Assembly: GCF_002113885.1 (NCBI RefSeq)
Contig: NW_018408567.1
Coordinates: 1,067,537 to 1,123,101, forward strand
Length of the DNA stretch: 55,565 bases
Source of the DNA: Mizuhopecten yessoensis
Taxonomy: Eukaryota
Direction: 5' to 3'
Shown: positions 3,761 to 49,800 of the stretch, one piece after another
Layout: every line of letters starts with the position of its first letter
How positions within the stretch are numbered: the first letter of the stretch is position 1
Notes under the pieces: model-generated
Seen by the model: only the letters and a program-made list of their open reading frames with translations
Databases searched by the model: none
Told to the model about the DNA's origin: nothing
Program-made: the position numbers and the translations under genes

Positions 3761-6541
3761 TTACAAATCACCGTCATGAATGTGTCCTGTGATTTTGCTT
3801 TGAAGAATAGAAAGTTCCTCAGTAAATGATTTGCTCTCTGACGCTAAAATCCCAAACAGTTTTTCTAGTTTGGTCAAATCTGGTCTTCTAGCATCCAGTA
3901 CAAACTGCAGTGGATTGAAACCTTTCTTCTTTAATTGAGTACACATGTACCCTTTTTCGTGTTGGTCCAGAAAGGAGACGAACACTAGCCGAGCTGGGAA
4001 CACTTCGTTATGGTATTTCTCAAAGAGATCGGCAAAATTTCCAACATTTTCCCCTTCGTCTGTCACAATAATGAAGGTCTTTACAACCCTCTTTTGTTTG
4101 TAGAAAGGCATCAAGGCCGACGATGGATTTGTGGAGCCGCTTGCCTCAGTTTTCATTGCAAGTTTCAGGGCTTCGTCGACATTTTCTGGCACCTTTTTTG
4201 GGCGCTTACAATTATGGTTGAATACAACAAGGTCGGCAGAACAAATCGAGCATAATATTCCAGTAATGACAGAACTAGTCCTGACCGCGATATCCATGGA
4301 CCCTGAACGATCTCCGAGTACAACGACAGGAGAATCTAGCTTCAGTTTGACGTTCTGAAGTTTAGATTCGGCAAGGCTGAGCAACGTTTTCATGAATGGA
4401 ATCTTATATTTTCCTGTCGCCCTCCTGCCACAGCGAAATCCGCGTGCTAGTTCTTTCAATGTGATTAACCTGTCCATCATCTTTCCGATTGGAAGGTCGC
4501 TTGTGTCTCCTGTGTCAAGTCGTTGCATTATTATTTCATCCACCTGGCGGCATTCTATGTCTTCATAATACCATAACACAGTGTCGAGTCGAGGTTCTGA
4601 TGTGGCAATTTTAATCTTTGACTCTACATTAAGGTACTTTTTAAATTTCCGGCTATGGGCATATGGAATGTCACACGTTTTTAATTTGTCGTTTATGTTC
4701 TTTTCGTTCAGGTCCTCGCAAGTGTGCACTACGGTTCCACAGGGTGCTGACTGGCCAAAACAGTAGGACAGAAACCAGGGTAGATTGGGAAAGTCCTCTA
4801 CAGGATTAAAATGGCAAATGTCGGCTAGTTTCTTCCATGGTTTTTTAGGAAGATGGAGGGCATAGCGTTCGAGCTCTTCCTTGCTCAATGTTTTTGTCCA
4901 TTTACGAACATTTTTACATATCGATCCACTTGCAGATCCCTTTTTAGGCTGTAGCTTTCTCATGCTATTTATTTTGCACTTCAATTTGTCAATTTTATGA
5001 CGAGACACCTTTCCCCTTGCCGTTTGAAGTCGTTTTAGGGTTTTTTCTCCTTGTCGGATAAGTCTTCCTGAATCCACGATTTGTAAAGCTTTCAATATTT
5101 CAACCATTCCATATCTGTCGCGATCGCATATGAACTCTGTGGACATCTTGAAATCGTTTCTTGCCCAGCTGGCAGCTAAAGCGCGTACTCGGACTTGTTG
5201 ACGTAGCTCCACCCCCTTTAGATGTAATAACGACATGCATGCAATATACCTGCTACGATTTTGATTTTGAGCTTGGATATGTTCATCCGTTGAAGCGTTG
5301 GCAAAGAAAAATTCGCTGACATTTTGATCAATATCAACCACGGTTGCATTCATTTTACTTCTGTGAGGCGATCTACTTTTACTATGACTTCTTCTGTGAG
5401 GCGTTACGCTTCTACTACGACTTCTTTTCCCGGGCCGTCTACGCCTAGTACGCCCCCTTCCCCGAAACCGTCTACGTTTAATTTTGCTCCTTCTGCGAGG
5501 CGATCTACTTCTACTGCGACTAAAGCGAGGCGACCTACTTCTACTGCGACTAAATCGAGGCGATCTACTTTTCCTATGACTCCAGCGACGCGAAATACTT
5601 CGACTACGCCTTCTTCTGCGACGCGATCTACTTCTGCTACGCCTCCAGCGAGGCGAAATACTTCGACTACGCCTTCTTCTGCGACGCGATCTACTTCTGC
5701 TACGACTCCAGCGAGGCGATCTACTTCTGCTCCGATTCTTTCTTTGAGTACTTGTTATGTAACTCAAGCCTTCAGGCGATCGACTCCTACTACAACTCCT
5801 ACTTACACTGCGACTCGATAAAACTCCTGGTGAGTCAGAGTAATTAGAATATGGCGATACCGATCGGCTTAATATCGATGAGTAAGTTGGAGATAGCTGT
5901 CGTGGAGAGAATGTATTTCTACGAGAACTCCTTGATCTGCGCGAGTATTTCATCATTTGAAACCGATTTGGGGAGAGACTACCATACCGTGGACCGATTG
6001 TTTTCGACGAGTTATTTCTACATGACGCGTCTCTTCTGTGTGGTTCATATAGATCCTGACTGACACATAGCAACGGACAACTTCTACTCCTTGAAATTTT
6101 TCTTGGACTTCGCCATCTTGATCTAGGTGATCGACGTCGCCAGGCTGTTATGTATTGCCATGGAGAACACGATCTGGAATAGGATCTTCTACGCCATCTT
6201 GGAGAGTATGACCTAGAGCGTGATCGTCGAATCTGGGTGTTCCGTCTTGGAGAACATGATGGTCGAATCGGGGTTCTCCGTCTTGGAGAACATGATGGTC
6301 GTGTCGGAGTTCTACTTCGTCTTGGAGAACATGCTGGTTGAGTCGGGGTTCTACTTCGTCTTGGAGAACATGATGGTCGAGTCGGGGTTCTCCGTTTTGG
6401 AGAACATGCTGGTCGAGTCGGAGTTCTACTCTGTCTTGGAGAACATGATCGTCGAGTCGGGGTTCTACTCCGTCTTAGTGAATAGGAACTAGGAACACAT
6501 TGGTGAGCTCGTCCCCTATTCCTCTTGCGTCTCCTTCCCAT
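3761..6541 (-). CDS. Gene A: RS/protamine-like N-terminus fused to a Ro60/TROVE-like helical region and a C-terminal vWA (MIDAS) domain, 926 aa, intronless CDS
   Basis: Residues 1-396 are R/S/P repeats (RSRTPTRPSCSP; SRSRSRRRRRRSRSISPRW). From M397 (5353) the sequence looks globular: PWKKLADICHFNP resembles the TROVE W-x-x-x-(D/L)-x-x-x-x-x-H-x-x-P segment. The vWA MIDAS is VVVLGDRSGSM (DRSGS at 4298-4312), followed by SGSTN and FIIVTDE, in the same order as in the Ro60 vWA domain. Confidence 0.85.
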   Translation of the reverse strand: MGRRRKRNRGRAHQCVPSSYSLRRSRTPTRRSCSPRQSRTPTRPACSPKRRTPTRPSCSPRRSRTPTQPACSPRRSRTPTRPSCSPRRRTPIRPSCSPRRNTQIRRSRSRSYSPRWRRRSYSRSCSPWQYITAWRRRSPRSRWRSPRKISRSRSCPLLCVSQDLYEPHRRDASCRNNSSKTIGPRYGSLSPNRFQMMKYSRRSRSSRRNTFSPRQLSPTYSSILSRSVSPYSNYSDSPGVLSSRSVSRSCSRSRSPEGLSYITSTQRKNRSRSRSPRWSRSRSRSRRRRRRSRSISPRWRRSRSRSRRRRRRSRSISRRWSHRKSRSPRFSRSRSRSPRFSRSRSRSPRRRSKIKRRRFRGRGRTRRRRPGKRSRSRSVTPHRRSHSKSRSPHRSKMNATVVDIDQNVSEFFFANASTDEHIQAQNQNRSRYIACMSLLHLKGVELRQQVRVRALAASWARNDFKMSTEFICDRDRYGMVEILKALQIVDSGRLIRQGEKTLKRLQTARGKVSRHKIDKLKCKINSMRKLQPKKGSASGSICKNVRKWTKTLSKEELERYALHLPKKPWKKLADICHFNPVEDFPNLPWFLSYCFGQSAPCGTVVHTCEDLNEKNINDKLKTCDIPYAHSRKFKKYLNVESKIKIATSEPRLDTVLWYYEDIECRQVDEIIMQRLDTGDTSDLPIGKMMDRLITLKELARGFRCGRRATGKYKIPFMKTLLSLAESKLQNVKLKLDSPVVVLGDRSGSMDIAVRTSSVITGILCSICSADLVVFNHNCKRPKKVPENVDEALKLAMKTEASGSTNPSSALMPFYKQKRVVKTFIIVTDEGENVGNFADLFEKYHNEVFPARLVFVSFLDQHEKGYMCTQLKKKGFNPLQFVLDARRPDLTKLEKLFGILASESKSFTEELSILQSKITGHIHDGDL
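6235..6475. repeat. 30/33-bp coding repeat in gene A (RSRTPTRPSCSP)
   Basis: The motif cgtcttggagaacatg recurs about 8 times. Confidence 0.85.
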
Positions 6542-8323
6542 GCCAACACCTCAATAATGATTCAATCAAATACAAATGTTTTTGTTTATATTAGCTGTTG
6601 TAATGACCCAGCTGATAATTCATTACGGAATGTACAGCGATCTTCAATTTCTTGTTGATATGCACGGCACTTGTTGCTGTTCATTGTACCTGAAATTGTT
6701 CATTAAAATCTGATGTAATAATACAGGTCTTCATTAAATATGATGTACGACTTGTAAGATCCCACATATGAAATGACAACAGTCTATATTAGGTTGTTTG
6801 CAGTGGATTTCTTTTCATTGTCATCGTATCAATTGTCGATATGGCGATCACTTATTGCCAATTCTAAAGTTCAAAAACAATTTCAGATGTTGATAGACAC
6901 TTCAAAACATCTAGCATCTGCTTAATATACTACCATAATCCATAATATGCAGATATTATAACCATATCCTCAGTGATTGATTGGCTGGAATTCATCAAAT
7001 ACTGTATGTACAAGCACTTATTAACACATTTTTTTCATACATCCAAAACGATATGATTGTAAAGGGGAAATGTCAATATCCCACACGCTCACTTACAGTA
7101 GAATGAAAAACACACATGTGTATTGAATAGAAAATCATTCAACCGATTTAATGGTCCGCACCATAGTCGGTTTGTTACGCAATCGTTACAGCTTCCCACT
7201 GTCACTGATATATATAAGCGTCGTTAACTCGAATATGTGGCTATGTAACAGCGTGGCAATATCAATCGTTAAATTAAAGTACCGATCGTAGATATATACT
7301 AGCACTCGTGTAGAACGTTCTGTATACGTATACAAAGCGTAGTCTGGTCGTATATATGGTATGTGTGTGTACTCACACTAACCTGTGTATATACGCACAA
7401 AGAAGTAGTCCCGTGTTATAATTAACCGTTTTTTACTGTCATGAAAGATATACTTTAAATTGTTACCATGTATATCTATATATAGACAGTATTTTTTCCC
7501 CGTACAACAGATACACCACTAAACAAGATTTTTTCTGTGTTGTGCAATAGTAACAGACTAATTAAAACGTCCCATAGGAATATATAGGAAGAAACACACA
7601 TAAAGAATCTAAATATGGAAATTACAAACAACTATAATGGAAACAGCACAGTCAGTATACTAGTTAAAAATTATAAAGAATCATATTTGCTTTTATTCAA
7701 GTATAGCATACAAACATATTAAAAGTATTGTAGTTGTTTTTCTTGCTAGTGTTAACTACGTATGATAGCGTGTAACTAAAACTTGGATATCATGATAATC
7801 AACGGCAATTATGCATAAACATGTATGTATTTTTACTTTAAAAGTAGATTTTATCAGGACTTGGTGGGGTTTTTTTTAAATTTTTAATCGGGTAAAACAT
7901 ATACAGAGCATTAAGTAACGAGTAAGTACATAAGTCGGGATCCAAGTTTTGGAACTGTTTTATTTTTTATTATTATTTTCATGCTTATAGAATACGTATC
8001 ACAGATATTTGCTGACATAATAGAAAATATTAGCACATAACACTTATGTAAGATTTGGAAATATCCTAGTTACCACAATAAGGAGTTTTGATATTTTATG
8101 TATAGTGTGATGTATAGCATTATTATATACAGTGGACTCGCAAATTGTTTGTTTAAATAAAAACATGTTATATTTATTCTTTAATAACACCTAGGATACT
8201 GTTAAAAAGAAGGTTACGGTTGAACGGTTCATTTATTTTGGATTACCTTTTAACTAAGACTACAAGGAGTGGCTATGTATTACCAACAAGATGGTATGCA
8301 AAATACTCTTTATTATGCATGTA

Positions 8324-11054: not shown

Positions 11055-11265
11055 TGCTGTAGTGGTTAGGGCGTCTGACATTATGCTACCACTAGCCCTC
11101 CTCACTGGGTCGCGTGTTCGAGACCTACGTGGGGCAGTCGCCAGGTACTGGCCGTAGGTCGGTGGTTTTCCTCCGGGAACTCCGGCTTTCCTCCACCAAT
11201 AAAACCTGGCATGTCCTTAAATGACCATGGCTGTTAATAGGATGTAAAACACAATCAAACCAATC
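11055..11265 (+). mobile_element. tRNA-derived SINE with V-domain (BivaV-type), slightly 5'-truncated
   Basis: tRNA-like head with B box gttcgagacc, V-domain ggttttcctccgggaactccggctttcctccacc, tail ccttaaatgaccatggctgttaataggatgtaaaac plus (aaacc)-like end; homologous to 25680-25902. Confidence 0.85.
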
Positions 11266-12250
11266 TACTGTAAAAAGCAACCAACCGTGTTTAAAAAAGA
11301 CAAAAACACCAGATTTTTTTATATAACGAAGTTTTATTTGCAAATCAACAAATTTTAACATCTGTTAAAATCTCTTATCATTTATTGTTTGAAAATGTGT
11401 ATGTGCTTTTTTTATATTCCAACTCGTTGTTACATACATTTATGGAGTTGTTATCTTATTTGTATATAACCACATATATGACATTGTTAATATAACTGAG
11501 TATGATTGATGATAGATAATTTACATTATGTTAAGCAGTGTAAACTCAATATAAGGAATTATGAATATCATTAAATATATATAATACACTACTACTATAG
11601 CACCGTTTGCATTGAGTGTAGATAATCAATAATAGATAACTTGGTCAGTGAAAAATAGTTCTGTATATAAATATACACACAAACATACATACATGAATTG
11701 AAATGTTAACTGTCTTTAATTAATAATAAATATTTTAGTTCATGAATGACACTAATAACTTAACTGTTAAGTTAATTGTTCATAATGAGTTAAACATACT
11801 TTTCTAAATATTTAATATACATGTTAACTTAACTGTATATTATTAAATATACATACTTTGCTGAATGTATAGCACATTTTACTTAACAGTAGGTAATAAA
11901 TAAAAAAAACAAAATGCTAAATGTATGACACTGAAATTTAACTGTTAACCCAATTGTTCATAATCAGTGAGAACTAATTTCCTGTATAAATGGAAGTGAT
12001 TATTGTATGTAAGTAACAATATACAATTGACAATATATATAATACTGTTAACTATACATAATTAAAGTTTTTTATATATATATATGGCACTGTTAATTGT
12101 ATATACATTTGTAATTGATAATAAATAATTAACTTTATGTATGACACTGTTAACATATTTGAACACCATCAATATTTTTTTCAATGATTAATGATTTATT
12201 AGATGTGTGATACGGATAACTGTACATAATTCATGATAAATTACTTAATA

Positions 12251-12500
12251 TGCTGTAAGCGTACCTATATTAGCACATTCACATTTTAGCGAAAAGAATG
12301 GGGTAGGACTCAAAAGCGCACTCTTTGCTGAGCAGAATCGCGGTACCTAATTTCATTTTCTGTCCCTTGTCACATTTTATGGTATTGAGATAGCTTGTGC
12401 AATGTAGTCTAATTTTGCGATGGACGTGAATTAACGGAGGAAAGGTTAGCGCGAAGGACGTACAGAATAAAATACCGCTAAAATTAGTACACTTACAGTA
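12251..12500. mobile_element. TA-flanked MITE (ctgtaa...ttacagta family); related copy near 31688-31885
   Basis: Inverted ends ctgtaagcgtac...tattagc and gctaaaattagtacacttacagta. Confidence 0.55.
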
Positions 12501-12659
12501 TTACGACATCGTTAAGTTTACTATATAATTACTGATGAAAGTACAAACCGGTTATATATAAAGAACGTGATATCAACAGGACTTTCAGTTGACATTAGTG
12601 AGTTCCGTGGTTTAATCTTCCACGATGTGAAAATACAAAATATGTTATAAAAAACATCG

Positions 12660-13281
12660 TCATGATCTTCAGTGAATGATTTCGCCTCTGACAAATCAAA
12701 ATCTTGAGCATTTTTTCTGGTTCGTTCAAATCGGGCCTTCTTTCATCAGGTACAAACTGCAGTAAGTGGATGTTAAACTTTCTCCTTTAATGCAGTCCAC
12801 GTGTAAACTTTTCGGTGTTTGTTCCAAAGGGAAAGGAACACTAGCCGAGCTAGGTACACTTTGGTTTGGTATTTCCCGCAAAAATCTGCAAAAATGTCTT
12901 CGTCTGTCACTAAAACAATGATGTCCTCTGTTGTTTGTAGAAAGCCTTGAAAGTCATTTGACATTTGTTAGCTTAGCTTTTAATTTCCATTTTGTTAAAT
13001 AACAACAAAGTTCATGTTCACATTTTTAAATCATTGTCAAATATTATTTATGATGAGAACCTCTCCCCGTTGCTTTAGCTATTTTTCTCCTTAACAGACA
13101 CGTCTTCAAACTTTGTTACGCTTTCAACAGCTCTCTCTCTCTGTCTTTATAAATATTGAAACCTTTTTATTGCCAAGCAAGCAGTTAGCGCACGTACTCG
13201 GACTCGTAGATCCTCCCCTTTTGAATTAACACTGGATACTACGAAACATCTGCTACGATTTTGACTTGGGCTTTGACATGT
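12660..13281 (-). pseudogene. Decayed TROVE/vWA remnant of gene B
   Basis: Frameshifted fragments match gene A: TDEHVKAQ vs TDEHIQAQ; QNRSRC...RVRVRALTA vs QNRSRY...QVRVRALAA; VLVTDEDIFADFCGKYQTKVYLARLVFLS vs IIVTDEGENVGNFADLFEKYHNEVFPARLVFVS; SEAKSFTED vs SESKSFTEE. About 0.6 kb remains versus about 1.5 kb in gene A, and the MIDAS segment is missing. Confidence 0.85.
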
Positions 13282-14106
13282 TCATCCGTTTAAACGTTCG
13301 CAAAGAAAATGATCAATGTCAAACACGGTTGCATTCGAGTTTTCTCTGCCTTTTTCATGTTTGCAATATGTATTTGTATTGATCCTACTATGTGATGCGA
13401 TCCTTCTATAACGTTTCCTTCCGCGATGCGATCCACTTCTACTACGTTTACTTCTGCAATGCGATCCACTTCTACTGCGTTTACTTCTATGATGCGATCC
13501 ACTTCTACTACGTTTACTTCTGCAATGCGATCCACTTCTACTACGACTCCTTCTATGATGCGATCCACTTCTACTACGACTTCTTTTGCAATGTGACACA
13601 CTTCTATGACGTTTCTTTCCGTGATGCGATCCACTTCTATTACGACTCCTGTTCGGCGATCTACTTCTGCTATGTTTCTTTCTGTGATGCGATCCACTTC
13701 TTTTATGTCCTCTAGGATGTGATCTACTTCTACTACAACTCTTTCTTTGCGTGCTAGTACTAAAACCCATCGCTTGAAACCGATCTAGGGAGAGGCTACC
13801 ATAACGTAGAGTTAATCCTTCCAACGAATGATGTCTAACTGATGAGTCCCTCCCATGCAATACAGATAACTGGCTGTGACTGGATCGAAGCAACGGACAA
13901 CTTCTACTCCTTGAAATGTTCCTTGAACTTTGCCATCGTGATCTAGGCCTCGGAGAACACGATCTGGAACAGGATAGGGGAATTGGGGTCCTACTCCGGC
14001 CTCGAGAATGTGACCGAGAACGTGATCGTTGAGTCGGTGAACTACTCCGCCGTTTTGAGTGCTGATGAGCTCGCCGCCTATACTTCCTTCCGCGTTTCTT
14101 TCCCAT
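13282..14106 (-). CDS. Gene B: truncated paralog of gene A; 274-aa R/S/H-rich protamine-like ORF
   Basis: Collinear with gene A: MGKKRGRKYRRRAHQ vs MGRRRKRNRGRAHQ; ISRSRSCPLL in both; RYGSLSLDRFQAM vs RYGSLSPNRFQMM; NATVFDID vs NATVVDID. A short deletion after NATVFDID shifts the frame to a stop at 13282. Confidence 0.7.
   Translation of the reverse strand: MGKKRGRKYRRRAHQHSKRRSSSPTQRSRSRSHSRGRSRTPIPLSCSRSCSPRPRSRWQSSRNISRSRSCPLLRSSHSQLSVLHGRDSSVRHHSLEGLTLRYGSLSLDRFQAMGFSTSTQRKSCSRSRSHPRGHKRSGSHHRKKHSRSRSPNRSRNRSGSHHGKKRHRSVSHCKRSRSRSGSHHRRSRSRSGSHCRSKRSRSGSHHRSKRSRSGSHCRSKRSRSGSHRGRKRYRRIASHSRINTNTYCKHEKGRENSNATVFDIDHFLCERLNG
13400..13700. repeat. 30-bp coding repeat in gene B (RSRSGSHHRS-like)
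   Basis: The motif gatgcgatccacttctactacg recurs with 30/33-bp spacing. Confidence 0.85.
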
Positions 14107-15262
14107 GCTTACTACTCAAGTACGATTGTGTTAAATACAAATGTTTTGTTTATGGTTTAGGAAATATTCAAGCAACCTTTATAATCTTGATAACAGGCAC
14201 GGCAATTGATAATGTTCATGAAGATATGTTGTAATCATAGGAGTGTTCAACAAACGTTCATGCACGAAGCCACATCAGCTGAATTCACAACATATGCAAT
14301 TTCAGGTGTCTAAATATATTTATAACGTCCAGAATCTGGTCGGTATACTATCATAATTTGTAGTCAAAGATATTATGAGGATATCCTTCCTGAAAGTTTG
14401 ACCGGAATTCCGTAACACATCCACCAATCCTGATGTACATTCTATAATTAAAACATTTTGTCAAACATCAAAATAAATATGATTGCTTAGGGGAAAATTC
14501 AATACCCCATCCAGTATCCTGCAATAGCGTGAAAACCACACATGTGTGATAAACAGAAAATCATGTCCAGGATTTAACAGTCCACGATAGTTATAAGATT
14601 ACATTATAATGTTACTCCAACATCTCCGTGAAATAGTTGAAATATGTTGCTACGTCCATGAGTTTCTTTCCCGTACATTAACGTACACCGTAATTACAAT
14701 CGTTTAACTGACGTGCTAAGATTACCGACCGTATATATACTAACACTGAAGAAGAACGTATGATATACGTTTAGAAAACGTAGTCTGGTCGTATCTATAT
14801 CAAGTAACGACGTGTGCTGTACGTTTGCCAAACGATACATATATTGACCTATACATACTTAGTCCCATGCTATTATTAGCATATATTCACTCTTATCAAT
14901 GAAAGATGAACGTAATATACACACACAGGGGACTGCACATTTAAAATGTGTTAAAAGATACAGTTTACAAAAAATAAATTTCACTATATCATAAAGCTGT
15001 TTCGTCCTTCCAGAAGTCATAGAAAATCATGTGGGGCCAGAAGTTGAAAATCTAAATTTTGTGAACAACTATTGAAACAGATGGTCAGGTGCGTAAAATC
15101 CCTTACTTAATTAATTAATATAATTTTTTTATTTAATTTTCAATGTATATTAATATATAGACAATAATTTCTCAATACAATTGATGCATCGACCATGATA
15201 GAATATATTTCTTTTTAACAACTGATATTGGTACTTATTGGCGATGTAGTATCACATATCTT

Positions 15263-15500
15263 ATAATGTGACCGGGTGGGGTGTCCTGCATGGTGTCTTC
15301 GGCGGTATGTTTCAGTGAGGTAGCACTATAAAGTCGGCATCAGTTCCGCGTTATCACAAGGAGACAAACACGAACATATCGCAGCCTCCCAAAACACACA
15401 CGCATACACTACACGCATGCATCTTGCACACAGGGGAGGTCGTCCTTAAATGACCATAGCTGTTGATAGGACGTTAAACAATACTAAACCAAACCAAACC
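15263..15500 (+). mobile_element. 5'-truncated SINE with Meta-domain-like core
   Basis: Core aatgtgaccgggtggggtgtc...ttcagtgaggtagcactataaa and the same 3' tail as the V-SINEs (ccttaaatgaccatagctgttgataggacgttaaac...aaaccaaacc). Confidence 0.7.
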
Positions 15501-20397: not shown

Positions 20398-22836
20398 TCA
20401 CTGACTGATAACGTCTGCGATGTGGTAACGGCAACCGTTTCGGTTCCAAGTAACATCAACTTCCACCACATCGCCACCTGACGTACGCTTACGTCTCTCC
20501 GTCCTTTTACTTATACATCGACATCGTTCAGGTGAGCTACTGCAACTACTTGAAAGAGACGACATACTACTTCTCCAAGGTGATGTGCTGCAAGTTCGAC
20601 AGTTCGACCTACTCCTTCTTCGACACCGTCGCCAAGGAGATAAACTGCAACTCCTTCGAGTGTATGAACTACCCCTACTTCGACGCCGTCGCCAAGGTGA
20701 TATGCTGCAGCTTCTTCGAATATGCGACGTACTCCTACTTCGGCGCCGTCGCCAAGGTGATGTGCTGTAACTCCTTCGATCATTCGACCAGCTCCTATTT
20801 TGATCTCGTCGCCAAGGTGACAAACTGCAACTCCTTCGAATATACGACCTACTCCTACTTCGGCATTGTCGCCAGCGTGATGTTCTGAAGCTCATTCTAT
20901 CATTCGATCCACTCCTACTTCGAGAACGTCGACAAGGTGATTTACTATAACTCCGTCGACGAGGAGATCTGCTTATGCTACGATCCCTGTACCAAGAATA
21001 ATATCTACTCCTTCGCTGGAGTGGAAACCTTGAAATCCCCCACCGGGGATATATATTTCTGTAGCAACCTCTATTGCGGAAGCGTGTTAGCCGTGACCTG
21101 TTTGTACCGCTACATCTTCGCCCAGGTGATCTAGTCCTGCTGCGTCTACTGCTAGTACTGCGACTCCTTAGCAAATGACGTTTTCTACTTGTACTCCGAC
21201 GCCATCGCTGTGGCGGTTTACTAAGACTGCGACTCCTTCGCCGTGGTGATTTACTATTACTGCGACTCCTTCGCCCTGGTGCGTTACTAATACTGCGACT
21301 CCTTCGCCCTGGTGAGTTACTAGGACTGCGACTCCTTCGCCCTGGTGAGTTACTAATACTGCGGCTCCTTCGCCGTGGTGAGTTACTATTCCTGCGACTC
21401 CTTCGCCCTGGTGAGTCACTAATACTGCGACTCCTTCGCCCTGGTGAGTTACTAGGACTGCGACTCCTTCGCCCTGGTGAGTTACTAGTGCTGCGACTCC
21501 TTCGCCCTGGTGAGTTCCTATTACTGCGACTCCTTCGCCCTGGTGAGTTACTAATACTGCGGCTCCTTCGCCGTGGTGAGTTACTATTCCTGCGACTCCT
21601 TCGCCCTGGTGAGTTACTAAGGCTGCGACTCCTTCGCCCTGGTGAGTTCCTATTACTGCGACTCCTTCGCCCTGGTGAGTTACTATGACTGCGACTCCTT
21701 CGCCCTGGTGAGTTACTAATACTGCGGCTCCTTCGCCGTGGTGAGTTACTATTCCTGCGACTCCTTCGCCCTGGTGAGTTACTAATACTGCGGCTCCTTC
21801 GCCGTGGTGAGTTACTATTACTGCGACTCCTTCGCCTTGGTGATTTACTATTACTGCGACTCCTTCGCCGTGGAGAGTTACTAAGACTGCGACTCCTTCG
21901 CCCTGGCGAGTTACTAAGACTGCGACTCCTTCGCCCTGCTGAGTTACTAAGACTGCGACTCCTTCGCCGTGGGGATTTACTATTACTGCGACTCCTTCGC
22001 CGTGGCGAGTTACTAAGACTGCGACTCCTTCGCCCTGCTGAGTTACTAAGACTGCGACTCCTTCGCCGTGGCGAGTTACTAAGACTGCGACTCCTTCGCC
22101 GTGGGGAGTTACTAAGACTGCGACTCCTTCGCCGTGGGGAGTTACTATTACTGCGACTCCTTCGCCGTGGTGATTTACTAAGACTGCGACTCCTTCGCCC
22201 TGGTGATTTACTAATACTGCGACTCCTTCGCCCTGGTGAGTTACTAGTGCTGCGACTCCTTCGCCGTGGTGATTTACTAGTGCTGCGACTCCTTCGCCAT
22301 GGTGAGTTACTATTACTGCGACTCCTTCGCCCTGGTGCGTTACTAATACTGCGACTCCTTCGCCCTGGTGAGTTACTAATACTGCGACTCCTTCGCCCTG
22401 GTGAGTTACTAATACTGCGGCTCCTTCGCCGTGGTGAGTTACTATTCCTGCGACTCCTTCGCCCTGGTGAGTCACTAATACTGCGACTCCTTCGCCCTGG
22501 TGAGTTACTATGACTGCGACTCCTTCGCCGTGGTGAGTTACTATTCCTGCGACTCCTTCGCCCTGGTGAGTTACTAAGACTGCGACTCCTTCGCCCTGGT
22601 GAGTTACTAGTGCTGCGACTCCTTTGCCGTGGGGTTATATTAGTACTGCGATGGCATCGCTGTGGCGGTTTACTCAGACTGCGACTCCTTCGCCGCGGTG
22701 AATTACTAGAACTGCGACTCCTTCGCCGTGGTGATTTACTAGAACTGCGACTCCTTCGCCCTGGCGATTCACCAGCACAGAGACTCCTCCGCCTTGGTGA
22801 TTTACTGGCACTGTGATACCTTTCCACAGACATCAT
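20398..22836 (-). CDS. Gene C: 812-aa protamine-like/RS-repeat protein with no globular domain
   Basis: ATG-to-TGA ORF made of about 54 decapeptide repeats (RRSRS[ILN]SNSP[GR]) followed by Cys/Trp/Tyr-containing 20-aa repeats (e.g. RSRSYIRRSCSLSPWRR). The frame stays open across the repeats and their unique flanks. Confidence 0.75.
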   Translation of the reverse strand: MMSVERYHSASKSPRRRSLCAGESPGRRSRSSSKSPRRRSRSSSNSPRRRSRSLSKPPQRCHRSTNITPRQRSRSTSNSPGRRSRSLSNSPGRRSRRNSNSPRRRSRSHSNSPGRRSRSISDSPGRRSRRNSNSPRRRSRSISNSPGRRSRSISNSPGRRSRSISNAPGRRSRSNSNSPWRRSRSTSKSPRRRSRSTSNSPGRRSRSISKSPGRRSRSLSKSPRRRSRSNSNSPRRRSRSLSNSPRRRSRSLSNSPRRRSRSLSNSAGRRSRSLSNSPRRRSRSNSKSPRRRSRSLSNSAGRRSRSLSNSPGRRSRSLSNSPRRRSRSNSKSPRRRSRSNSNSPRRRSRSISNSPGRRSRRNSNSPRRRSRSISNSPGRRSRSHSNSPGRRSRSNRNSPGRRSRSLSNSPGRRSRRNSNSPRRRSRSISNSPGRRSRSNRNSPGRRSRSTSNSPGRRSRSPSNSPGRRSRSISDSPGRRSRRNSNSPRRRSRSISNSPGRRSRSPSNSPGRRSRSISNAPGRRSRSNSKSPRRRSRSLSKPPQRWRRSTSRKRHLLRSRSTSSRRSRTRSPGRRCSGTNRSRLTRFRNRGCYRNIYPRWGISRFPLQRRSRYYSWYRDRSISRSPRRRSYSKSPCRRSRSRSGSNDRMSFRTSRWRQCRSRSRSYIRRSCSLSPWRRDQNRSWSNDRRSYSTSPWRRRRSRSTSHIRRSCSISPWRRRRSRGSSYTRRSCSLSPWRRCRRRSRSNCRTCSTSPWRSSMSSLSSSCSSSPERCRCISKRTERRKRTSGGDVVEVDVTWNRNGCRYHIADVISQ
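20565..20960. repeat. 60-bp coding tandem repeat in the 3' part of gene C
   Basis: The motif gtcgccaaggtga and its variants recur every 60 bp (near 20628, 20688, 20748, 20808, 20868, 20928). Confidence 0.9.
21190..22810. repeat. 30-bp coding tandem repeat inside gene C
   Basis: Unit ctgcgactccttcgccctggtgagttactaata-type with a strict 30-bp period and substitutions only, no visible indels. Confidence 0.95.
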
Positions 22837-25679: not shown

Positions 25680-25902
25680 GGTCACGGTGGCCAAGTGGTT
25701 CAGGCGTCTGACATTCTGCTACCACTAGCCCTCCACCACTGGGTCGCGGTTTCGAGGCCTACGTGGGCCAGTCACCAGGTACTAGCCGTAGGTCGGTAGT
25801 TTTTCTATGGGAACTCTGGCTTGCCTCCACCACTAAAACCTGGCACGTCCTTAAATGACCATAGCTCTGTAAATAGGACGTAAAACACAAACAGACCAAA
25901 CC
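25680..25902 (+). mobile_element. tRNA-derived V-SINE, second copy
   Basis: A box tggccaagtgg and B-box-like gtttcgaggc; aligns along its length with 11055-11265. Confidence 0.85.
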
Positions 25903-26564
25903 GATGAAAAAGGTATGCATTTAAGTATGGACCATTCAATACAGAATAACTAGACACGGCTTTAACATCGATATCCATTACACATGTACATTACAGCTTC
26001 ATGCTGATCCTTTTAGTAAAATGGTGTAATGACACACCGTTACTCACTGAAAGACAGTTTTCTTATACAATCTCTTTTCACCACGTAAGGTATGTCTTTT
26101 AATTCACGTTAAAAGTACGTGAAAAAAATATATAAAACAACTCATCCAATTTAAAACCACTGTTCTTGAACATCCAATTATATGTAGACTGTAAAACATG
26201 TTTTTTTTTTTTTTTTTTACAATTTTCATTGTTTCATACAGATCAAAAGAGGTTGTCTACAGTATGGTAATATGGCTGATTTATATTTATTACGATTTAT
26301 TGCTTTTCTGATCGTCTGCTTCCAAAACTGTCATATTATATTAAGTTTATAACTCTTGTGTAATGCATATTTCTTGATGAATAAGCGACAGAAGAGTCAA
26401 CACGTCCTTGTAATGTAAGGAAAAATTAACTGTTGATACCTACTATAACGGAAGAGGCAGGAACTTAGACAACTCCAGATGACATTCGTACGTCAAATGC
26501 AACACTTCTTTTTATAATAATCAAATTTAATGTAGGTGTAATAAAGGAAAACTAACGAATAAAA

Positions 26565-28541
26565 ATGATGTTTATACTTACAGATTCCAGCGTGAACGTG
26601 GAAGGCTGCATCTTGTTGGATATGACCTCGTTTGATTCATTCCCAGGAGGGATCGAGCCCCCCGAGTCGGATAATCCGTTGCAGTGTCGGTATTGCGGCA
26701 AAATTTTCACGAGGTCCAATTATCGGAGGGAGCATGAGCGGATACATACCGGAGAGAAACCATACGAATGTGGATTCTGTGCACGACGCTTTAACAGCAA
26801 GGGAAGTTGTAACAAACACGAACAGAGTCACATGAACCGAGAGAAGAAATTGGCGGCACTGACATGGAGACCATTTACTTGTCATATCTGTCAACAAACC
26901 TTCAAGCACGAGAGTGTTCTCAAGAAGCATATCCTGTTTCACACAGGTCTGAAGAAATATCAATGTGAAATTTGTTTGAAGTTTTACTTCACCTCCTATG
27001 ATCTAAGAGTTCATGTCCGTTTTCACACGGGTGAAAAGCCGTACAAATGCCGTATGTGCAATGTGTTTTTCACAACAGGTAGAAAACGGAATCTTCATGA
27101 GAAATTTCACGTTCGGCAAGACACTCTACAATGCAAGAAATGCAAAACAATTTTCCGATCAGTCAACGCACTCAAACTGCACAAATATAAAAGTCAGTTA
27201 CGACGAACCGGTTGTGCGGAACCGGATGATTCATACGCTGTAAATAACTCGGCTGTCATTGATGATGGGAGTGATGGTTCAGTCCATACCACATTAGAGC
27301 TTGAGGAAGGGGATAGCAGGATGGTCCAAGCTACTGGAATAGAAAGCCAAGATACCAGTGGCAATGATGACAGCAGTTGTTTAGTAGTCAATGAAAACAT
27401 AGATGACCAAGATGATAACTCAGTTGAGCTTGACATAGAGGTGCTTGGCAACCACTACCGAAACGAAACTGCAGCAAATGAGACATTGCTTTCAAATGGT
27501 CTCCCATCGATGAAGACTTCTCCATCGAAAAACATCCAGAAAAGGAGCCAGACACGGGTGGTATTTCCAACAGGTCTATTTAGATCAACAGATCAAGGAA
27601 TTGAGGTTAGCCAGCCATTATCACAAAGTAATCGTACTACAAAACAGTCAATTCCTAAAGGGATCGACAGTATCGACTCCAGTCGAGGATTAAGTATATC
27701 TAGATATCATGATACCAGATTTATTTCTGATGATTCTACAGGAGGCAGTTACGTAGAGGAAAGGTCTTATGAATATGATGCTGAAGAGGTCATGTCCAAA
27801 TCTGTCGATTCCTGTGAACCTGGTAACATCGAAACAGGTACTTGCAGACTAGGTGCAACCGGATTTGGGTTATCTACTAGTCCTAACGATGGTCCTAATA
27901 ATGTCATCGCTGTCAAGACAGAAGTGACTGATGAACCTCAAACAACGCAAGTGTTTACATCAGCATTGGGTGTTCTGAATATGGGTTCTACCGAAGAAAT
28001 TACAAGTCTAGCAAAGCAAAGAATTCTGAACGATCGAAGTTCTGATTCTTCATCCTTGCGGATAAGTAATGCAGCTATTAGTCCTTTGCCTTTACCAAGA
28101 ATCACAAACGTTGCTGCTTTCAGAAAGGAGCCAAGTTCATCTCCATCTTCGTCCACGATTGGCAATGTGGTGCCTGTGTATAATTCAATTACACCACAGC
28201 TTGTGAAAACGTCGGTTATCTTCGACAGAACTCTTGACGAACCACGTTTGACCAGGCCAGATACGCCTTCTACTTCAGAGCTTACAGTAGTATCCACGTC
28301 TGTGAAGCACACACAGACTAAAATGATAGACGACGCCGATCTCCTATTTGCAGAAATGGAGTCGGCAAGGAAGGTGTTCGAGTGTAAACACTGTAGCATC
28401 ATCTTCCGGGATTTCACTATGTACCTTGTCCACAAGACACTTCACGTCGATACCAGCCGTCCATTTGTTTGCCACTTGTGTGGCAACGAGGCTAGAGACA
28501 AAGTAGATTTTCACTCTCACCATATTTGGCACATGAAGTGA
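26565..28541 (+). CDS. Ikaros/Hunchback-type C2H2 zinc-finger transcription factor (single large coding exon)
   Basis: Five canonical N-terminal C2H2 fingers with TGEKPY/TGLKKY linkers plus one degenerate finger. The C-terminal pair FECKHCSIIFRDFTMYLVHKTLH...PFVCHLCGNEARDKVDFHSHHIWH matches the Ikaros/Hunchback dimerization-finger pattern. A probable acceptor (tttatacttacag) ends at 26583, so the true start may be in an upstream exon or at the ATG at 26622. Confidence 0.9.
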   Translation: MMFILTDSSVNVEGCILLDMTSFDSFPGGIEPPESDNPLQCRYCGKIFTRSNYRREHERIHTGEKPYECGFCARRFNSKGSCNKHEQSHMNREKKLAALTWRPFTCHICQQTFKHESVLKKHILFHTGLKKYQCEICLKFYFTSYDLRVHVRFHTGEKPYKCRMCNVFFTTGRKRNLHEKFHVRQDTLQCKKCKTIFRSVNALKLHKYKSQLRRTGCAEPDDSYAVNNSAVIDDGSDGSVHTTLELEEGDSRMVQATGIESQDTSGNDDSSCLVVNENIDDQDDNSVELDIEVLGNHYRNETAANETLLSNGLPSMKTSPSKNIQKRSQTRVVFPTGLFRSTDQGIEVSQPLSQSNRTTKQSIPKGIDSIDSSRGLSISRYHDTRFISDDSTGGSYVEERSYEYDAEEVMSKSVDSCEPGNIETGTCRLGATGFGLSTSPNDGPNNVIAVKTEVTDEPQTTQVFTSALGVLNMGSTEEITSLAKQRILNDRSSDSSSLRISNAAISPLPLPRITNVAAFRKEPSSSPSSSTIGNVVPVYNSITPQLVKTSVIFDRTLDEPRLTRPDTPSTSELTVVSTSVKHTQTKMIDDADLLFAEMESARKVFECKHCSIIFRDFTMYLVHKTLHVDTSRPFVCHLCGNEARDKVDFHSHHIWHMK

Positions 28542-34866: not shown

Positions 34867-37800
34867 CTGTTGACAAGGAAAGAAAACATATATCAGTAAA
34901 ACAAAGTTTAACAGACTGAGTAAGATAAATGATTTTTTTAAACTTGACTCTATGTATTATTAACAATGAAATGTTTCCATTTTCTCACAAATCGAATTAT
35001 ATATGCATAACTCTTCTGTCCAATGTTTTAGCCCAATCCACTGAAAACTATAGACTATCTGAGTGAGATGAGACACCATGGTGTATGAAACATCATGAGT
35101 GAGGGTATAAAGGTCATTGTTACCTGGGTGAGATGAGATACCATGATATAAATGTGACCTGGGCGAGATGGGAAACCATAATGTAAATGTGACCTGGGTG
35201 AGACGAGACATCATGCTATATATGTGACCTGGGTGAGACGAGACATCATGCTATGAATGTGACCTGGATGAGATGAGACACCATGTTGTATATGTGACCT
35301 GGATGAGATGAGACACCATGCAATATATGTGACCTTGGTGAGTTGAGACACCCAATGCTTTATATGTGACCTGGATGAGATGAGACACCATGCTATATAT
35401 GTGACCTGGGTGAGATGAGACACCATGCTATGTATCTGACCTGGATGAGATGAGACACCATGCTGTATATGTGACCTGGATGAGATGAGACACTATGCTA
35501 TATATGTGACCTGGGTGAATTGGGACACCCCATGCTGTATATGTGACCTGGGTGAGATGAGACTCCATGCTATATATGTGACCAGGGTGAGATGATGACA
35601 CCATGCTATATATGTGACCTGGTTGAGATGAGACACCATGCTATGTGTGTGACCTGGGTGAGATGAGACACCATGCTATGTATGTGACCTGGGTGTGATG
35701 AGACACCATGCTATGTATGTGACCTGGGTGAGATGAGACAACATGCTATGTATGTGACCTAGGTGAGATGAGACACCATGATTTATATGTGACCTGGGTG
35801 AGATGAGACACCATGCTATGTATGTGACCTGGGTGAGATGAGACACCATGTTGTATAAGTGACCTGGATGAGATGAGACACCATGCAATATATGTGACCT
35901 TGGTGAGATGAGACACCCCATGCTTTATATGTGACCTGGATGAGATGAGACACCATGCTATATATGTGACCTGGGTGAGATGAGACACCATGCTATGTAT
36001 TTGACCTGGGTGAGATGAGACACCATGCTNNNNNNNNNNNNNNNNNNNNNNNNNNNNNNNNNNNNNNNNNNNNNNNNNNNNNNNNNNNNNNNNNNNNNNN
36101 NNNNNNNNNNNNNNNNNNNNNNNNNNNNNNNNNNNNNNNNNNNNNNNNNNNNNNNNNNNNNNNNNTGTGACCTGGGTGAGATGAGACACCATGCTATGTA
36201 TGTGACCTGGGTGAGATGAGACACCATGCTATGTATGTGACCTGGGTGTGATGAGACACCATGCTATGTATGTGACCTGGGTGAGATGAGACACCATGCT
36301 ATGTATGTGACCTAGGTGAGATGAGACACCATGATTTATGTGACCTGGGTGAGATGAGACACCATGCTATGTATGTGACCTGGGTGAGATGAGACACCAT
36401 GCTATGTATGTGACCTGGGTGAGATGAGACACCATGCTATATATGTGAACAGGGTGAGTTGACAAACCATGGTGTATGTTTCATCACAGATATGCTGTTG
36501 TCTATGCCATTTGAGTAAGATAAGACACCATTGTCTTTGTCACAAGAGAGAGATGAGACTAATAGAATCTGTCACCCCTTGGGGTGAGATAGAGGAATCT
36601 CAACCTGGGGAGGGGGGGGGAGATTCTTCAGTTACCAAACACATTGCTTGCTGAATCTTTCTCCGAGGGTTGAGAATCCCCATCTTACCTCAAGGGGCTG
36701 AATGATTCTTTTTCTCTTATCCTGTTGACCTATTATTTACACAAAGCAATTTTAACGTTACAGGTTCAATGCATTGTTAATGTGACATATATGCATTGTT
36801 GATGTGATGTCATACAGTTGTTATGAATAGGGCAATTCCCCTATCTCAAACCTAGGGTGAGACAAGGATATCTCACACCAAAGGTAGTGTGGATACACCT
36901 GTCAGGGTAATATAATTCACCAGAATGGGATAAGACACTTAGGTCTATGTTACCTTAGTGAGCTGCCTGTTCTGGCCCTTCAACATCCTGACGGTTTCCT
37001 CTGGGTTCATGGTGCTGTTAGTTGAGCGGACAGCAAGGTTCATGTGGAGTGGAAACCCCTGTGGATGAGGAGAGATAGAGATATAATACTGTAACGTCAA
37101 TTTAACGTTTTGCAATAATATAATTTTGATGAATTTTGTGCACTCTTTGCTGCCGATATTAATACCTGTATCATAATTTGTCTTGTCATTATTATTCACT
37201 GTATCGTTCAATAACCCATCAGTACTGACTACATCATGTTAAGGGCATGGGAAATCAATTGGAATGTTTCAGATTGACAGGATTCATCTAGGACCATTAA
37301 CAGATTTTATGTATGCAATCGTGCATAGTGAGGGTATTGATTGAAATGGGCCTTATCCTGCTAATTAACTTAGAGCGGTATAGAAACAAACACATGAGTA
37401 CAAGGTCTGCCAGGTAAAGTTACCTAGAGACACAAAATCTGATGTAAAAGACATGTTAATGAGTTTCATTTTACCAATAATAAACAGAGATAATTGAGGA
37501 CCTTACAAACACCTTTAGCTAAGGTAAAGTTACCTAGACACAAAATCTGATGTGAAAGACATGTTAATGATTTTCATTATACATGTCCCAAAAATATACA
37601 GCGATCATCGAGAACCTTATAAGACTCTTTCATGCCCAGGGGTGTAGGATAAGGAAATTCCACCCGAGGAGTTTTCATATTTGGTAAAACCTTAGGCTTT
37701 AGACGAAAACGAATCTGTCAGCGAGATTAAGCATACCCCATATTTGTAAACAGAACTGCACGGAAAAAATTCAATTCATCTTTCTAACGTGTATGGTAAA

Positions 37801-46800: not shown

Positions 46801-49800
46801 TTGTGACATTGTGGAAGAAAACTTACTTTAATTTCCTTCCATGTCTGTTTTTTTTCTAAATTGCTACCATGGCTATATATTATGACTGACTCAATCTTGG
46901 GTTAAACTTTTCCTGGAACAAAAATATTACTGTGCCTGATGGAATGGCTAGAAAAACATATGTGCGTAATGATTTAGGTATTTTTTCCCCCCTTTATGAC
47001 ATGTAATTAATACTTACTTTCAAGTTTATCAGCCCTAAGATGAAGATGGTTTTAACCCACTATACATGTATATAATAATGATACCAATTATCTTGCACAT
47101 GAAAAAGCAACAAATATATGTGAAATATTTAGGAACCAAAATAAACGTTTTATCGCAAACGATTTTTTGTTAGTAATTGTTACTAACTTGCCTGAAGAAA
47201 CTACTGAAAAATTAGTTTAATATAGCATAAATTTACAACATTTTAAATTCACATCCCATAAATCAAATCATGATCAAGATTTCCTAGCATAGAATGTCTT
47301 TTTCATGATAAACTTGTCATAAAGTGGATCATTATTTCCCCATATCCTGTACGATTATGTTCCATCTATCTCTGATCACGATGTACAATTAAAACCACTC
47401 AACCACAGCTCAATAGATCTAGATCCTATCGATGTTCCCAGCCGCAGAAAATTTCAGCAATTTCCCGGTCACGCTATTCAATGAAAAGTAACAACTTCAA
47501 TTTTATGCTACAATAGCAGGTTATGATGTACTATGACAATCATAGATTCGACACAATATTTCATAAAAACAGAACTGTTGAGCTCAGAGAAATTCAATTT
47601 GAAACCGAGTCTTAACTGGACCTGGACGGATCAAAGACGTTAGCCGTTGCTCAGGAGGGTATCAAGTGTCCAATGGATAATTTGTGAACAGTTAATAGAC
47701 AGGGCAAAGTAGCAGTGTTATCACGCCAGGTAAACTATTTACCTGTGTGTACCTTGACAGTTAGATGATATGGTCTAGTACTCGCCAATAATCGGACGTT
47801 GTGTAAACGAGACACTCGAGATCAGCATGGCACATACCGGTAGTACATTACCATATAAAACATTTCAGTTCCTGTCCAACTTTATTGCCCTTATCTATGT
47901 ATAGCAACAGTGGTTTCTCCTCTTTCTTTATTTAACATTTTGAATTCAAATTATATAGGGCAAGAATGCAAAGCAAATATCTTTCTCAACGTTTAACGTT
48001 TAAAATCCTATCAGTGTTTGAAAAACCTTATCAGTTATCCAACTCGCTGTTCTCACGATGACCTCATCTTTAACGAAAAGTTCAAAAGTTTGATTTGAAT
48101 AATTATTTAGGGCAAGACTGTTAACATATATATATATATACATCAAAAAACAAATATTTGAATACAACCACTTACCAGTACTGCATTGAGAAAAAACATT
48201 TAATAGAATAAAGAATAACTGAACATAACTGATTTAAAAATAATAAAAAAAATCCTGATGCCCAAAAAGGCTTTAGCAAGTGTGTTGTACTAGTAAATGA
48301 AGAAGCTTCTATTCCAACTGTAATTAATAGTTAACTTAAAAAATACACTTTCAAATGAAACTATTCTAGGTACCATGTCTTTGTTAAAGATCCTATATAC
48401 ATGCAATCATTACTCAACTCTTGCAATTGTCTATATATACAAGAATGCACATACGTTCATAGCACATTTTGTACAGTCTGTATGTGAATCTGAGGAGAGT
48501 CAACTTTAGACCTTTCAAACTTCGTGTTCTGATAAAAGCTTTTGCTGCAATCAAATTCTTCTTCTTCTTTTGTTTTGTAAAATTTTACAAAAGTGATAAT
48601 AACTTGACATTGGATTGAATAAGATTATAAATAAACAGAGCTTGTTTTAAATTTTCAATAATATTCACAGTGCAGAAACTTGTTCAGGTAATGTTTATAA
48701 TTAAACCATATTTTTTTTTATATAATTTTTATCTACAGAATGCAATTTTGATCAAATACAAAGATAGGTGTACAAATTACCCTGGAGCCTTATTAAATAC
48801 TTTTATTTTCTCATTTGTTATTATAAATGCCTAAATAAAAGTGTTATAGGCTTAAAGGCATGAAGTCAATTACTTTTCTATGCCCTGTGGGTTTAAAAAG
48901 CTAATCTACCAGTGGAAGGAGAGTTTAATCCCCTCAGGCTAACTACATGCATATGTAGCTTAGAAATTGGCAACAATTACCTGTAATCTTATCTCAATCT
49001 GACAACACACTATTATTTAGAAACATAAATAAACATGATTGGGTAAGTCAACCTTTCAATACCTGTGTTTATTTTTGATTGCTTATATCATCACTTGACA
49101 GATATAGATAACATTAGCTCTGGGAATCAGCAATTCATAATACATTACGATTGATCCCATAAGCTGTAGGCTATTTTCAAGTAATACAATTAAAACAATT
49201 ATAGTTACTCAATGTGATTTCCATTTCTATGTGATATAAGGTGAAAATGACACACTTAGGAATCATGTATTCAAGATTATTATGCTCTATATTTAATTAA
49301 TCAATTAATATTTTCAGACATTTTAATCATTGTCAACAAAATCCATTACAGAGTCTTAAAAGCTGCAACTGATAAAATACAGATTGGTAAACAAAATCCC
49401 TCTAGAACCTTATTAAATATTTTCATTTTTTTCATTTTCATGAACGTCTTTTTAAAAATTCTGGTGTCAGTCCTACTACTAAGAAATATAGTGGGTTCTC
49501 AAAAGAGTAGGCGAGTTCTATAAGGAAAGCATGATTAAGTCCTGGATTCAAATATCTGAATCCCAAAAATCACTGATTAGTTTAGACATATATATAGATA
49601 ACATTTCTCAGGATGTACCATCCCCTGGGATTATGTATTACATCTTTTACGTTTTTATTAAAATGCTCGATAATTTTCAGAAAATATTTACCGTAAACTC
49701 CTCCAGCTGATGAATGAGAACTTTGGGCCAGTAGATGTGAATCACTATTAGCTTGATGAAAATGTTCTTTCTTTGCAACAGATGGTTGTCCAGGCTCTTT

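What the first reader, a model, noticed from the sequence alone, without database searches (positions are those of the whole stretch)
12660..14106. Asymmetric decay in gene B: RS half open, TROVE/vWA half broken
Seen: about 260 codons of the RS region are stop-free despite strong divergence from gene A and indels in frame. The first frameshift falls right at the domain boundary (after NATVFDID); after it come stops, frameshifts and a large deletion that removes the MIDAS. Inference: selection kept only the basic domain, i.e. a stand-alone protamine-like gene forming by domain loss. Caveat: recently expanded repeats can stay open without selection.
Basis: partly seen in the sequence, partly recalled or inferred. 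Interest (0 to 1): 0.7.

Follow-up and report, generated by a model that had tools for sequence, protein, structure and literature searches.

The report
Half-dead duplicate keeps its basic tail
In a scallop, a tandem copy of an intron-free gene has lost its Ro60-like folded domain to frameshifts, stops and a large deletion, while its arginine/serine-rich front half stayed open far longer than chance allows, so it likely still makes a short, positively charged, disordered protein; a role in packing sperm DNA is untested and is not the favoured reading.

Summary
The asymmetry is real. Gene B (13282-14106, minus strand) is a tandem duplicate of intronless gene A, which joins an RS-rich tail to a Ro60/TROVE-vWA-like fold. 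A 14-bp deletion just after NATVFDID truncates B at 274 codons. Downstream lie 8 frameshifts, stops and an ~870-bp deletion that removes the MIDAS; 59 amino-acid changes map to B against 6 to A. At those rates the RS half would rarely stay open (P 0.0003-0.009 for the non-repeat part alone). Eight runs show no stop or frameshift allele, but have little power. Selection on the amino acids is weak: dN/dS is about 0.65 in the RS half against about 0.73 in the dead half, SNPs are 8 nonsynonymous to 3 synonymous, and net charge matches neutral drift. 132 bp of the repeat is an in-frame length polymorphism. 'Protamine-like' is not supported: there is no winged helix, arginine clusters were lost, and H1-type PL-I-like genes exist elsewhere in this genome. 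Transcription is hinted at only by runs guessed to be RNA. Verdict: a truncated duplicate that likely encodes a weakly constrained basic disordered protein. The scan's notes showed no earlier finding of this on other DNA.

The parts
13282..14106 (-). Gene B ORF, 274 aa, about 31.8 kDa: S 24.5%, R 22.6%, H 9.5%, 33 RS dipeptides, only 3 SP
13738..14106 (-). Non-repeat 5' part of the RS half (basic N-terminus and the SRSRSCPLL...RYGSLS linker shared with A and the Argopecten orthologue); open in 1 of 6 frames
13394..13737 (-). Array of 30/33-bp units (SRSGSHHRRKR-like). The first units share A's 30/33 pattern; the last ones are B-specific expansions
13447..13578 (-). 132-bp (44-codon) in-frame length polymorphism; the shorter allele gives 230 aa
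   Evidence: loose ends in 2 of 4 runs; junction check; contigs ending at 13446 with 8 unlaid letters in 4 of 4 runs (letters not shown, so inferred)
13390..13403 (-). Likely compensated -2/-1 frameshift pair in the last repeat unit (reads RIASH in place of the repeat frame)
   Evidence: alignment by eye to the unit and to A
13309..13335 (-). NATVFDID (first conserved motif of the TROVE-like domain), followed by the 14-bp truncating deletion
13034..13308 (-). Decayed start of the helical TROVE-like region (homologous to A ~5325-4980)
12945..13033 (-). Junction region of the ~870-bp deletion that removed most of the helical ring and the vWA MIDAS
12666..12944 (-). Decayed vWA C-terminus (homologous to A 4107-3816; the TDE motif is still readable)
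12147..13281 (-). Probable 3' UTR made of the dead half; AATAAA at 12200-12195
   Evidence: single contigs of guessed-RNA runs X10 and X11 span 12147/12154-13446; motif scan; inferred, weak
14107..14798 (-). Upstream DNA duplicated together with the gene (72.5% identical to A 6878-7357 over 451 aligned columns); probable promoter and 5' UTR
3761..6541 (-). Gene A, intact sister copy: intronless, 926 aa, RS-rich 397 aa plus a 530-aa Ro60/TROVE-vWA-like domain with DRSGS MIDAS; likely an old retrocopy

Best explanation
Gene B is a tandem duplicate of the intronless RS + Ro60-like gene A; a 14-bp deletion at the domain boundary truncated it, its folded half then decayed at a neutral rate and is likely now 3' UTR, and the RS frame has likely been held open by weak selection for a translated, disordered, positively charged protein that would bind nucleic acid and nuclear condensates through its RS dipeptides, without the RNA-binding ring. 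Shown: the duplication including upstream DNA, the truncation, B-lineage decay of the C-half, and an RS frame open beyond neutral expectation. Inferred: that A is a retrocopy whose RS region grew out of the family's short RG tail; that B escapes junction-dependent nonsense-mediated decay because it has no intron (established knowledge); and that B is transcribed and translated. Predicted only: nuclear location and control by RS kinases (recalled from SR-protein biology). Selection would act on length, frame and Ser/RS content more than on individual residues.
For: Polarised with the Argopecten orthologue, the C-half has 59 B-specific, 6 A-specific and 14 three-way differences in 176 codons, and its 0-fold and 4-fold sites diverge alike (0.22-0.24 against 0.24-0.25). 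In forward simulations at d = 0.1-0.2 and 0.008-0.0157 frameshifts per bp, P(no stop, no frameshift) is 0.0003-0.009 for the 123 non-repeat codons and 2e-7 to 4e-4 for the 663 bp left after removing the polymorphic repeat. Both halves are about 76% identical to A, so recent gene conversion does not explain the open half. Linker residues shared by A and both Argopecten copies are kept in 13 of 16 cases, against 72 of 131 in the dead half (one-sided Fisher P 0.04; 0.04 and 0.09 per copy). Ser is 26% against 19 +/- 2% expected by drift. No stop or frameshift allele of the ORF appeared in the 8 runs laid; the one ORF indel allele is in frame. Contigs of three guessed-RNA runs from two studies cover B, and single contigs bridge the RS end and the dead half (weak).
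Against: dN/dS of A against B is 0.64 and 0.67 in the alignable RS parts and 0.71 and 0.76 in the dead half, so no clear difference. ORF SNPs are 8 nonsynonymous, 3 synonymous and 0 nonsense (9/4/0 before two ambiguously placed rows were dropped), close to the neutral 596:181 site ratio; P(no nonsense among 13) is 0.48, so the population test has little power. Net charge (0.284) equals neutral drift (0.284 +/- 0.023). The simulation assumes equal indel rates in both halves and a frameshift count that depends on the alignment. No run is shown to be RNA, there is no strand, splice or poly(A) evidence, and there is no protein evidence. No orthologue of B turned up in two protein searches.
Confidence: 0.58

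Rival explanations
1. B is a duplicated pseudogene, perhaps transcribed from the inherited promoter. Its RS frame survives through repeat structure and luck, or was constrained for a while and is now drifting.
For: dN/dS and pN/pS are near neutral; charge decays as drift predicts; a second frame is also open across the repeat; 132 bp is a recent, polymorphic expansion; 19 of A's 22 SP motifs and most arginine runs have no counterpart in B; B's exact protein is not in the collection, whereas A's is.
Against: The non-repeat 123 codons, open in only one frame, would stay open with P of at most 0.009, and the older 663 bp with P of at most 4e-4. Pure chance is therefore unlikely; only the 'selection ended recently' form survives.
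Confidence: 0.27
2. B is a new sperm nuclear basic protein (protamine-like) formed by loss of the folded domain, and would help condense spermatid chromatin.
For: 31.8 kDa, pI about 12, and rich in R, K and H, within the 6-40 kDa range given for PL proteins (PMC11607694, passages). SNBPs evolve fast and need not come from H1 (PMC9917458, passages). B is intronless and sits in a cluster with a third RS-only ORF.
Against: No winged helix. Arginine fell from 34% to 24% and arginine runs from 9 to 1 relative to A, the opposite of protamine-type evolution. The genome already has at least four H1-type genes with RSRS tails. No tissue information is available.
Confidence: 0.13
3. The asymmetry is an artefact of assembly error or of recent gene conversion from A into B's RS half.
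For: The central repeat is not resolved by contigs in several runs.
Against: Contigs of independent runs cross both deletion junctions, and the RS half is no closer to A than the dead half is (76-77% against 76-77%).
Confidence: 0.02

Closest known systems
Ro60/TROVE2 (PDB 1yvp, 9nfa; bacterial Rsr 2nvo; phage 9l5y)
   Same: A's C-domain model (pLDDT 90) matches Ro60 chains in Foldseek ranks 1-12 (best E 1.8e-9, TM 0.35-0.53) and by VIA-align (Z 16.8, rmsd 7.5, 397 aligned): a helical region followed by a vWA domain with DxSxS.
   Different: Identity is only 11-14% and Pfam finds no family in A, so this is a separate, uncharacterised family. B has lost the domain altogether.
Argopecten irradians XP_069121487.1 / XP_069121480.1 (P0266, P0002)
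   Same: RS-rich N-half fused to the same domain, 73% identical to A's C-domain, with the same linker motifs.
   Different: Full length, so orthologous to A rather than B. Both records are flagged LOW QUALITY PROTEIN. No truncated B-type copy was found.
Bivalve H1-derived protamine-like proteins (Spisula PL-I, Mytilus PL-II/III/IV) and this genome's PL-I-like genes (L039-L042)
   Same: Basic, with RSRS runs, intronless, similar mass.
   Different: These descend from H1 (PMC5550673 passages; PMC11607694 section 10). The scallop copies have a winged helix, R+K of 40-41% and Ala of 12-16%. B has no winged helix, descends from a Ro60-like gene's tail, and is rich in His and Ser.
SR-related RS-domain proteins (SRRM-like; the name NCBI gives P0266)
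   Same: Dense RS/SR dipeptides in a disordered region.
   Different: No RRM or PWI domain was found. The likeness is in composition only, not homology.
Duplicated or retroposed young genes that survive in truncated or chimeric form (jingwei-type, reviewed in PMC5408686)
   Same: An intronless copy of a multi-exon gene that gains or loses parts and then diverges.
   Different: Here the conserved folded domain is the part lost and the low-complexity tail is the part kept.

Membership tests
H1-derived protamine-like SNBP | Winged-helix (linker histone) domain or descent from H1 | tested here: not met
   No Pfam family on B; none of the 20 genome-wide PF00538 matches lies on the window's contig; B is homologous to A's tail.
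H1-derived protamine-like SNBP | Rich in Arg and Lys, 6-40 kDa | tested here: met
   31.8 kDa and R+K 29%, though below the 40-41% of this genome's PL-I-like genes.
H1-derived protamine-like SNBP | Present in spermatid or sperm chromatin | not testable with these tools
   Runs carry no tissue or library label; no proteomics.
Protamine (P type) | 3-10 kDa, highly arginine-rich, with arginine clusters | tested here: not met
   274 aa, Arg 22.6%, one RRR. Processing of a precursor cannot be excluded.
Ro60/TROVE-vWA (gene A domain) | Helical TROVE-like region followed by vWA with MIDAS | tested here: met
   D348, S350 and S352 are invariant in 98 aligned sequences. Based on a predicted model.
Ro60/TROVE-vWA (gene A domain) | Match to Pfam TROVE or vWA_Ro60 profiles | tested here: not met
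   0 families for A at E <= 0.1. Atlas neighbours of the Pecten homologue P0011 include TROVE-bearing clusters (10% to 98% of members), a lead only.
Ro60/TROVE-vWA (gene A domain) | Binding of Y RNA or misfolded RNA | not testable with these tools
   Needs biochemistry.
Ro60/TROVE-vWA (gene B) | Intact domain | tested here: not met
   Frameshifts, stops and an ~870-bp deletion.
Retrogene (gene A lineage) | Intronless copy of intron-containing paralogues | tested here: met
   A is one ORF. The paralogues on C3225 and C20 match in 8 and 7 pieces, with GT-AG resolved at 6 of 7 and 5 of 6 junctions. Which paralogue is the parent is unresolved (quick tree).
Retrogene (gene A lineage) | Poly(A) remnant and target-site duplication | not tested
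   The copy is old (about 50% identity to the paralogues); such marks are not expected to survive.
SR proteins | RRM domain before the RS domain | tested here: not met
   No Pfam hit on A, B or C.
Duplicated pseudogene | Disabling lesions throughout, at the neutral rate | tested here: not met
   Met for the C-half, not for the RS half.
Duplicated pseudogene | dN/dS and pN/pS near 1 | tested here: inconclusive
   About 0.65 and about 0.8 on few sites, not separable from the dead half.

The most novel reading that the evidence does not exclude
B is a sperm chromatin protein in the making, born from the basic tail of a Ro60-like RNA-binding retrogene. That would be a route to protamine-like proteins other than histone H1 or HMG boxes, caught with its discarded domain still readable in the 3' UTR.
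Probability: 0.12. Interest if true: 0.8.

Novelty: new variant of a known kind. Interest (0 to 1): 0.42.

Why it matters
The locus holds a built-in neutral control: the dead half of the same gene gives the local rate of stops and frameshifts, so one can measure how selection treats a low-complexity region on its own. The result (frame kept, residues nearly free) is what composition-level selection on a disordered region would look like. If B proves to be in sperm nuclei, it would add a non-H1 origin for molluscan sperm basic proteins. It also points to gene A, a scallop RS + Ro60-like fusion, and to an uncharacterised Ro60-like family that is widespread in invertebrates. Four paper searches on these topics (listings, with passages of one hit) showed no description of either; subscription journals are mostly not covered.

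Tried and rejected
Orthologue search for B: the whole protein (7,979 candidates, none at E <= 10) and linker residues 58-125 (8 candidates, none), both limited to proteins of 150-480 aa. This is no proof of absence, since sister scallop genomes could not be searched. The Atlas could not read B's sequence. Expression: no RNA holder was listed. In guessed-RNA runs X10, X11 and X15, gene A and most unique intergenic DNA had little or no cover, but the runs were found with B and a hole proves nothing, so I did not use this to rank A and B. Those libraries could also be chromatin-enrichment data; X9's uneven depth (5 to 190) fits either. Contig ends at 12147-12211 coincide with a polymorphic stretch where DNA-run contigs also break, and no poly(A) loose end was listed. 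Test on indel alleles: P about 0.1, not significant (one search used 7 indels, of which one is a double count; 6 gives about 0.12). The Fisher test on in-frame indels was discarded because its 8-of-8 count was an assumption and A's own coding constraint inflates it. The composition simulation had a frame error and was redone. The idea of a three-step series A > B > C was rejected: C shows no TROVE remnant and no flank homology to A or B above shuffles. SNP rows 13475 and 13477 were dropped as ambiguously placed in the repeat, and hid 42 further variant rows. A Pfam scan of the whole 98-sequence alignment was over the size limit and was not run. The careful tree did not finish; only the quick tree (52 of 158 homologues) was used. 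CpG o/e gave no useful signal. The paper search returned 0 hits, so how scallop sperm proteins are classified was not confirmed. No supplements were read.

Full report
Setting. The window lies on a contig of a 988-Mb genome. The nearest named homologues are pectinid scallops; earlier scan notes call the genome Yesso scallop, which I did not test beyond that. Three intronless RS-rich ORFs lie on the minus strand: A (3761-6541, 926 aa), B (13282-14106, 274 aa) and C (20398-22836, 812 aa). A and B are tandem duplicates, with homology from upstream DNA (6878-7357 against 14297-14798) to downstream DNA (3245 against 12044). A genome search with B's 5' region found only B and A.

What the lost domain is. 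Pfam finds nothing in A. A model built on a 98-sequence alignment has pLDDT 90. Its top 12 Foldseek matches are all Ro60/TROVE chains (best E 1.8e-9), and VIA-align ranks Ro60, Rsr and a phage Ro60 first (Z 16.8, 16.6 and 14.1; rmsd 5-7.5). The genome holds two paralogues in 8 and 7 pieces, with GT-AG introns resolved at 6 of 7 and 5 of 6 junctions. A has no intron, so it is likely an old retrocopy. Argopecten has the same RS + domain fusion (73% identical in the domain). In a quick tree of 52 of the 158 homologues, A, the Argopecten protein and P0003 form a clade (SH-aLRT 100). P0003 and most family members have only a short basic or RG tail, so the RS region probably grew from that tail (inference).

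The observation. B is open for 265 codons through NATVFDID. A 14-bp deletion then shifts the frame and a stop follows 9 codons later. The rest has 8 internal frameshifting indels in 572 aligned columns, 5 stops in A's frame of which 2 are clean nonsense substitutions, and an ~870-bp deletion covering the MIDAS. Contigs from 4 of 4 runs cross the 14-bp junction, and contigs of X4, X6 and X12 cross the large-deletion region, so these lesions are not assembly errors. Two refinements: the last repeat unit carries a likely -2/-1 compensated pair, and four 33-bp units (13447-13578) are an in-frame length polymorphism.

Is the asymmetry more than chance? Using the Argopecten protein as outgroup, 59 of 176 C-half codons changed on B's side, 6 on A's, and 14 differ in all three. 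Zero-fold and four-fold sites diverge equally. The dead half is thus an internal neutral clock, at roughly 0.2 substitutions per site and about 0.014 frameshifts per bp. In forward simulations bracketing these rates, the 123 non-repeat codons stay open with P 0.0003-0.009, and the 663 bp left after removing the polymorphic units with P 2e-7 to 4e-4. Identity to A is the same in both halves (76-77%), which excludes recent conversion. These tests assume similar indel rates in both halves.

What selection sees. It sees little at the residue level. dN/dS is 0.64 and 0.67 in the RS parts against 0.71 and 0.76 in the dead half. ORF SNPs from 8 of the 16 holder runs are 8 nonsynonymous, 3 synonymous and 0 nonsense after dropping two ambiguous rows; finding no nonsense allele among so few SNPs is expected even without selection (P 0.48). 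Net charge equals drift from A's homologous segments, while serine stays higher than drift (26% against 19 +/- 2%; A today is only a stand-in for the ancestor). Linker residues conserved between A and Argopecten are kept more often than in the dead half (13 of 16 against 72 of 131, P 0.04), a modest signal. The pattern fits weak selection on frame, length and RS content, or selection that has lately relaxed.

Expression. Contigs of three runs guessed to be RNA (two studies) cover B from 12147-12211 to 14147 or beyond, and single 1.3-kb contigs bridge the RS end and the dead half. An AATAAA lies at 12200. Library type, strand and tissue are not on record, so this is a weak hint that the dead half is 3' UTR. 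An intronless mRNA would escape junction-dependent nonsense-mediated decay (established knowledge; the 50-55-nt rule appears in the abstract start of PMC1854916 in the listing).

Protamine-like? PL proteins are described as Arg/Lys-rich, 6-40 kDa and H1-derived (PMC11607694: passages and section 10; PMC5550673: passages). Protamines are described as small, with arginine clusters, and hard to call from composition alone (PMC12216123: passages). Non-H1 origins exist in Drosophila (PMC9917458: passages). B fits the mass and charge but has no winged helix. It has lost arginine (34% to 24%), arginine runs (9 to 1) and SP motifs (22 to 3) relative to A, and gained histidine. The genome has at least four H1-type genes with RSRS tails elsewhere. 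So B is not a member of the PL family, and whether it works like one is open (about 13%).

Verdict. This is a real and measurable case of asymmetric decay: a duplicate of an RS + Ro60-like retrogene that discarded the folded domain and likely survives as a weakly constrained, basic, disordered protein (0.58). The main rival is a pseudogene whose constraint has lapsed (0.27). Truncated duplicates and retrogenes are a known kind (PMC5408686: passages); keeping the low-complexity tail and losing the conserved domain is a variant of it. Searches of the scan's notes by sequence and by place returned nothing similar, and paper searches showed no description of these genes.

Noticed in passing
window 20398-22836 (-): Gene C: an intronless 812-aa RS-only ORF (S 30%, R 30%), with 48 copies of a 33-bp unit (SPGRRSRSISN-like). 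It has no TROVE remnant or flank homology to A or B, no close copy elsewhere in the genome, and this exact sequence is not in the protein collection. By composition it is a better sperm-protein or SR-related candidate than B. Its last residues look like a frameshifted RS repeat.
   Followed up: partly
window 3761-6541 (-): Gene A: an intronless RS + Ro60-like fusion shared with Argopecten. Its sister in the quick tree (P0003, Logan) has only a short basic tail, suggesting that the RS region expanded later from the family's RG tail.
   Followed up: partly
G000:C3225:853000-863000 and G000:C20:120500-130500 (L019, L021): Two multi-exon paralogues of an uncharacterised Ro60-like family (158 hits; molluscs, annelids, nemerteans, echinoderms, amphioxus, rotifers). 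Pfam misses the family in A, and many members start with an RG-rich tail.
   Followed up: partly
L039-L042 (G000:C680, C1165 twice, C5580): Four H1-type genes with RSRSRS and SPKK N-tails that look like canonical PL-I sperm proteins (206-323 aa).
   Followed up: partly
window 14107-14165 and 6542-6600: A conserved block of about 24 bp (ATAAAC..AAAACATTTGTATTT) some 25-50 bases upstream of both start codons; a possible core promoter or 5' UTR element. A 30-bp deletion allele and an ~77-bp insertion allele lie just upstream in B.
   Followed up: no
window 26556-28541 (+): A 661-codon open frame with N-terminal C2H2 fingers and a C-terminal finger pair (Pfam zf-C2H2 hits); the layout recalls Ikaros/Hunchback (recalled label).
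   Followed up: no
window 49582-50682 (-): Exon of a SAPCD2-like gene (PF25825).
   Followed up: no
window 11061-11263, 15262-15500, 25694-25902: Copies of a short, very high-copy interspersed repeat (very high summed contig depth).
   Followed up: no
window 35118-36479: A 35-bp minisatellite containing assembly gaps (137 N in the window).
   Followed up: no
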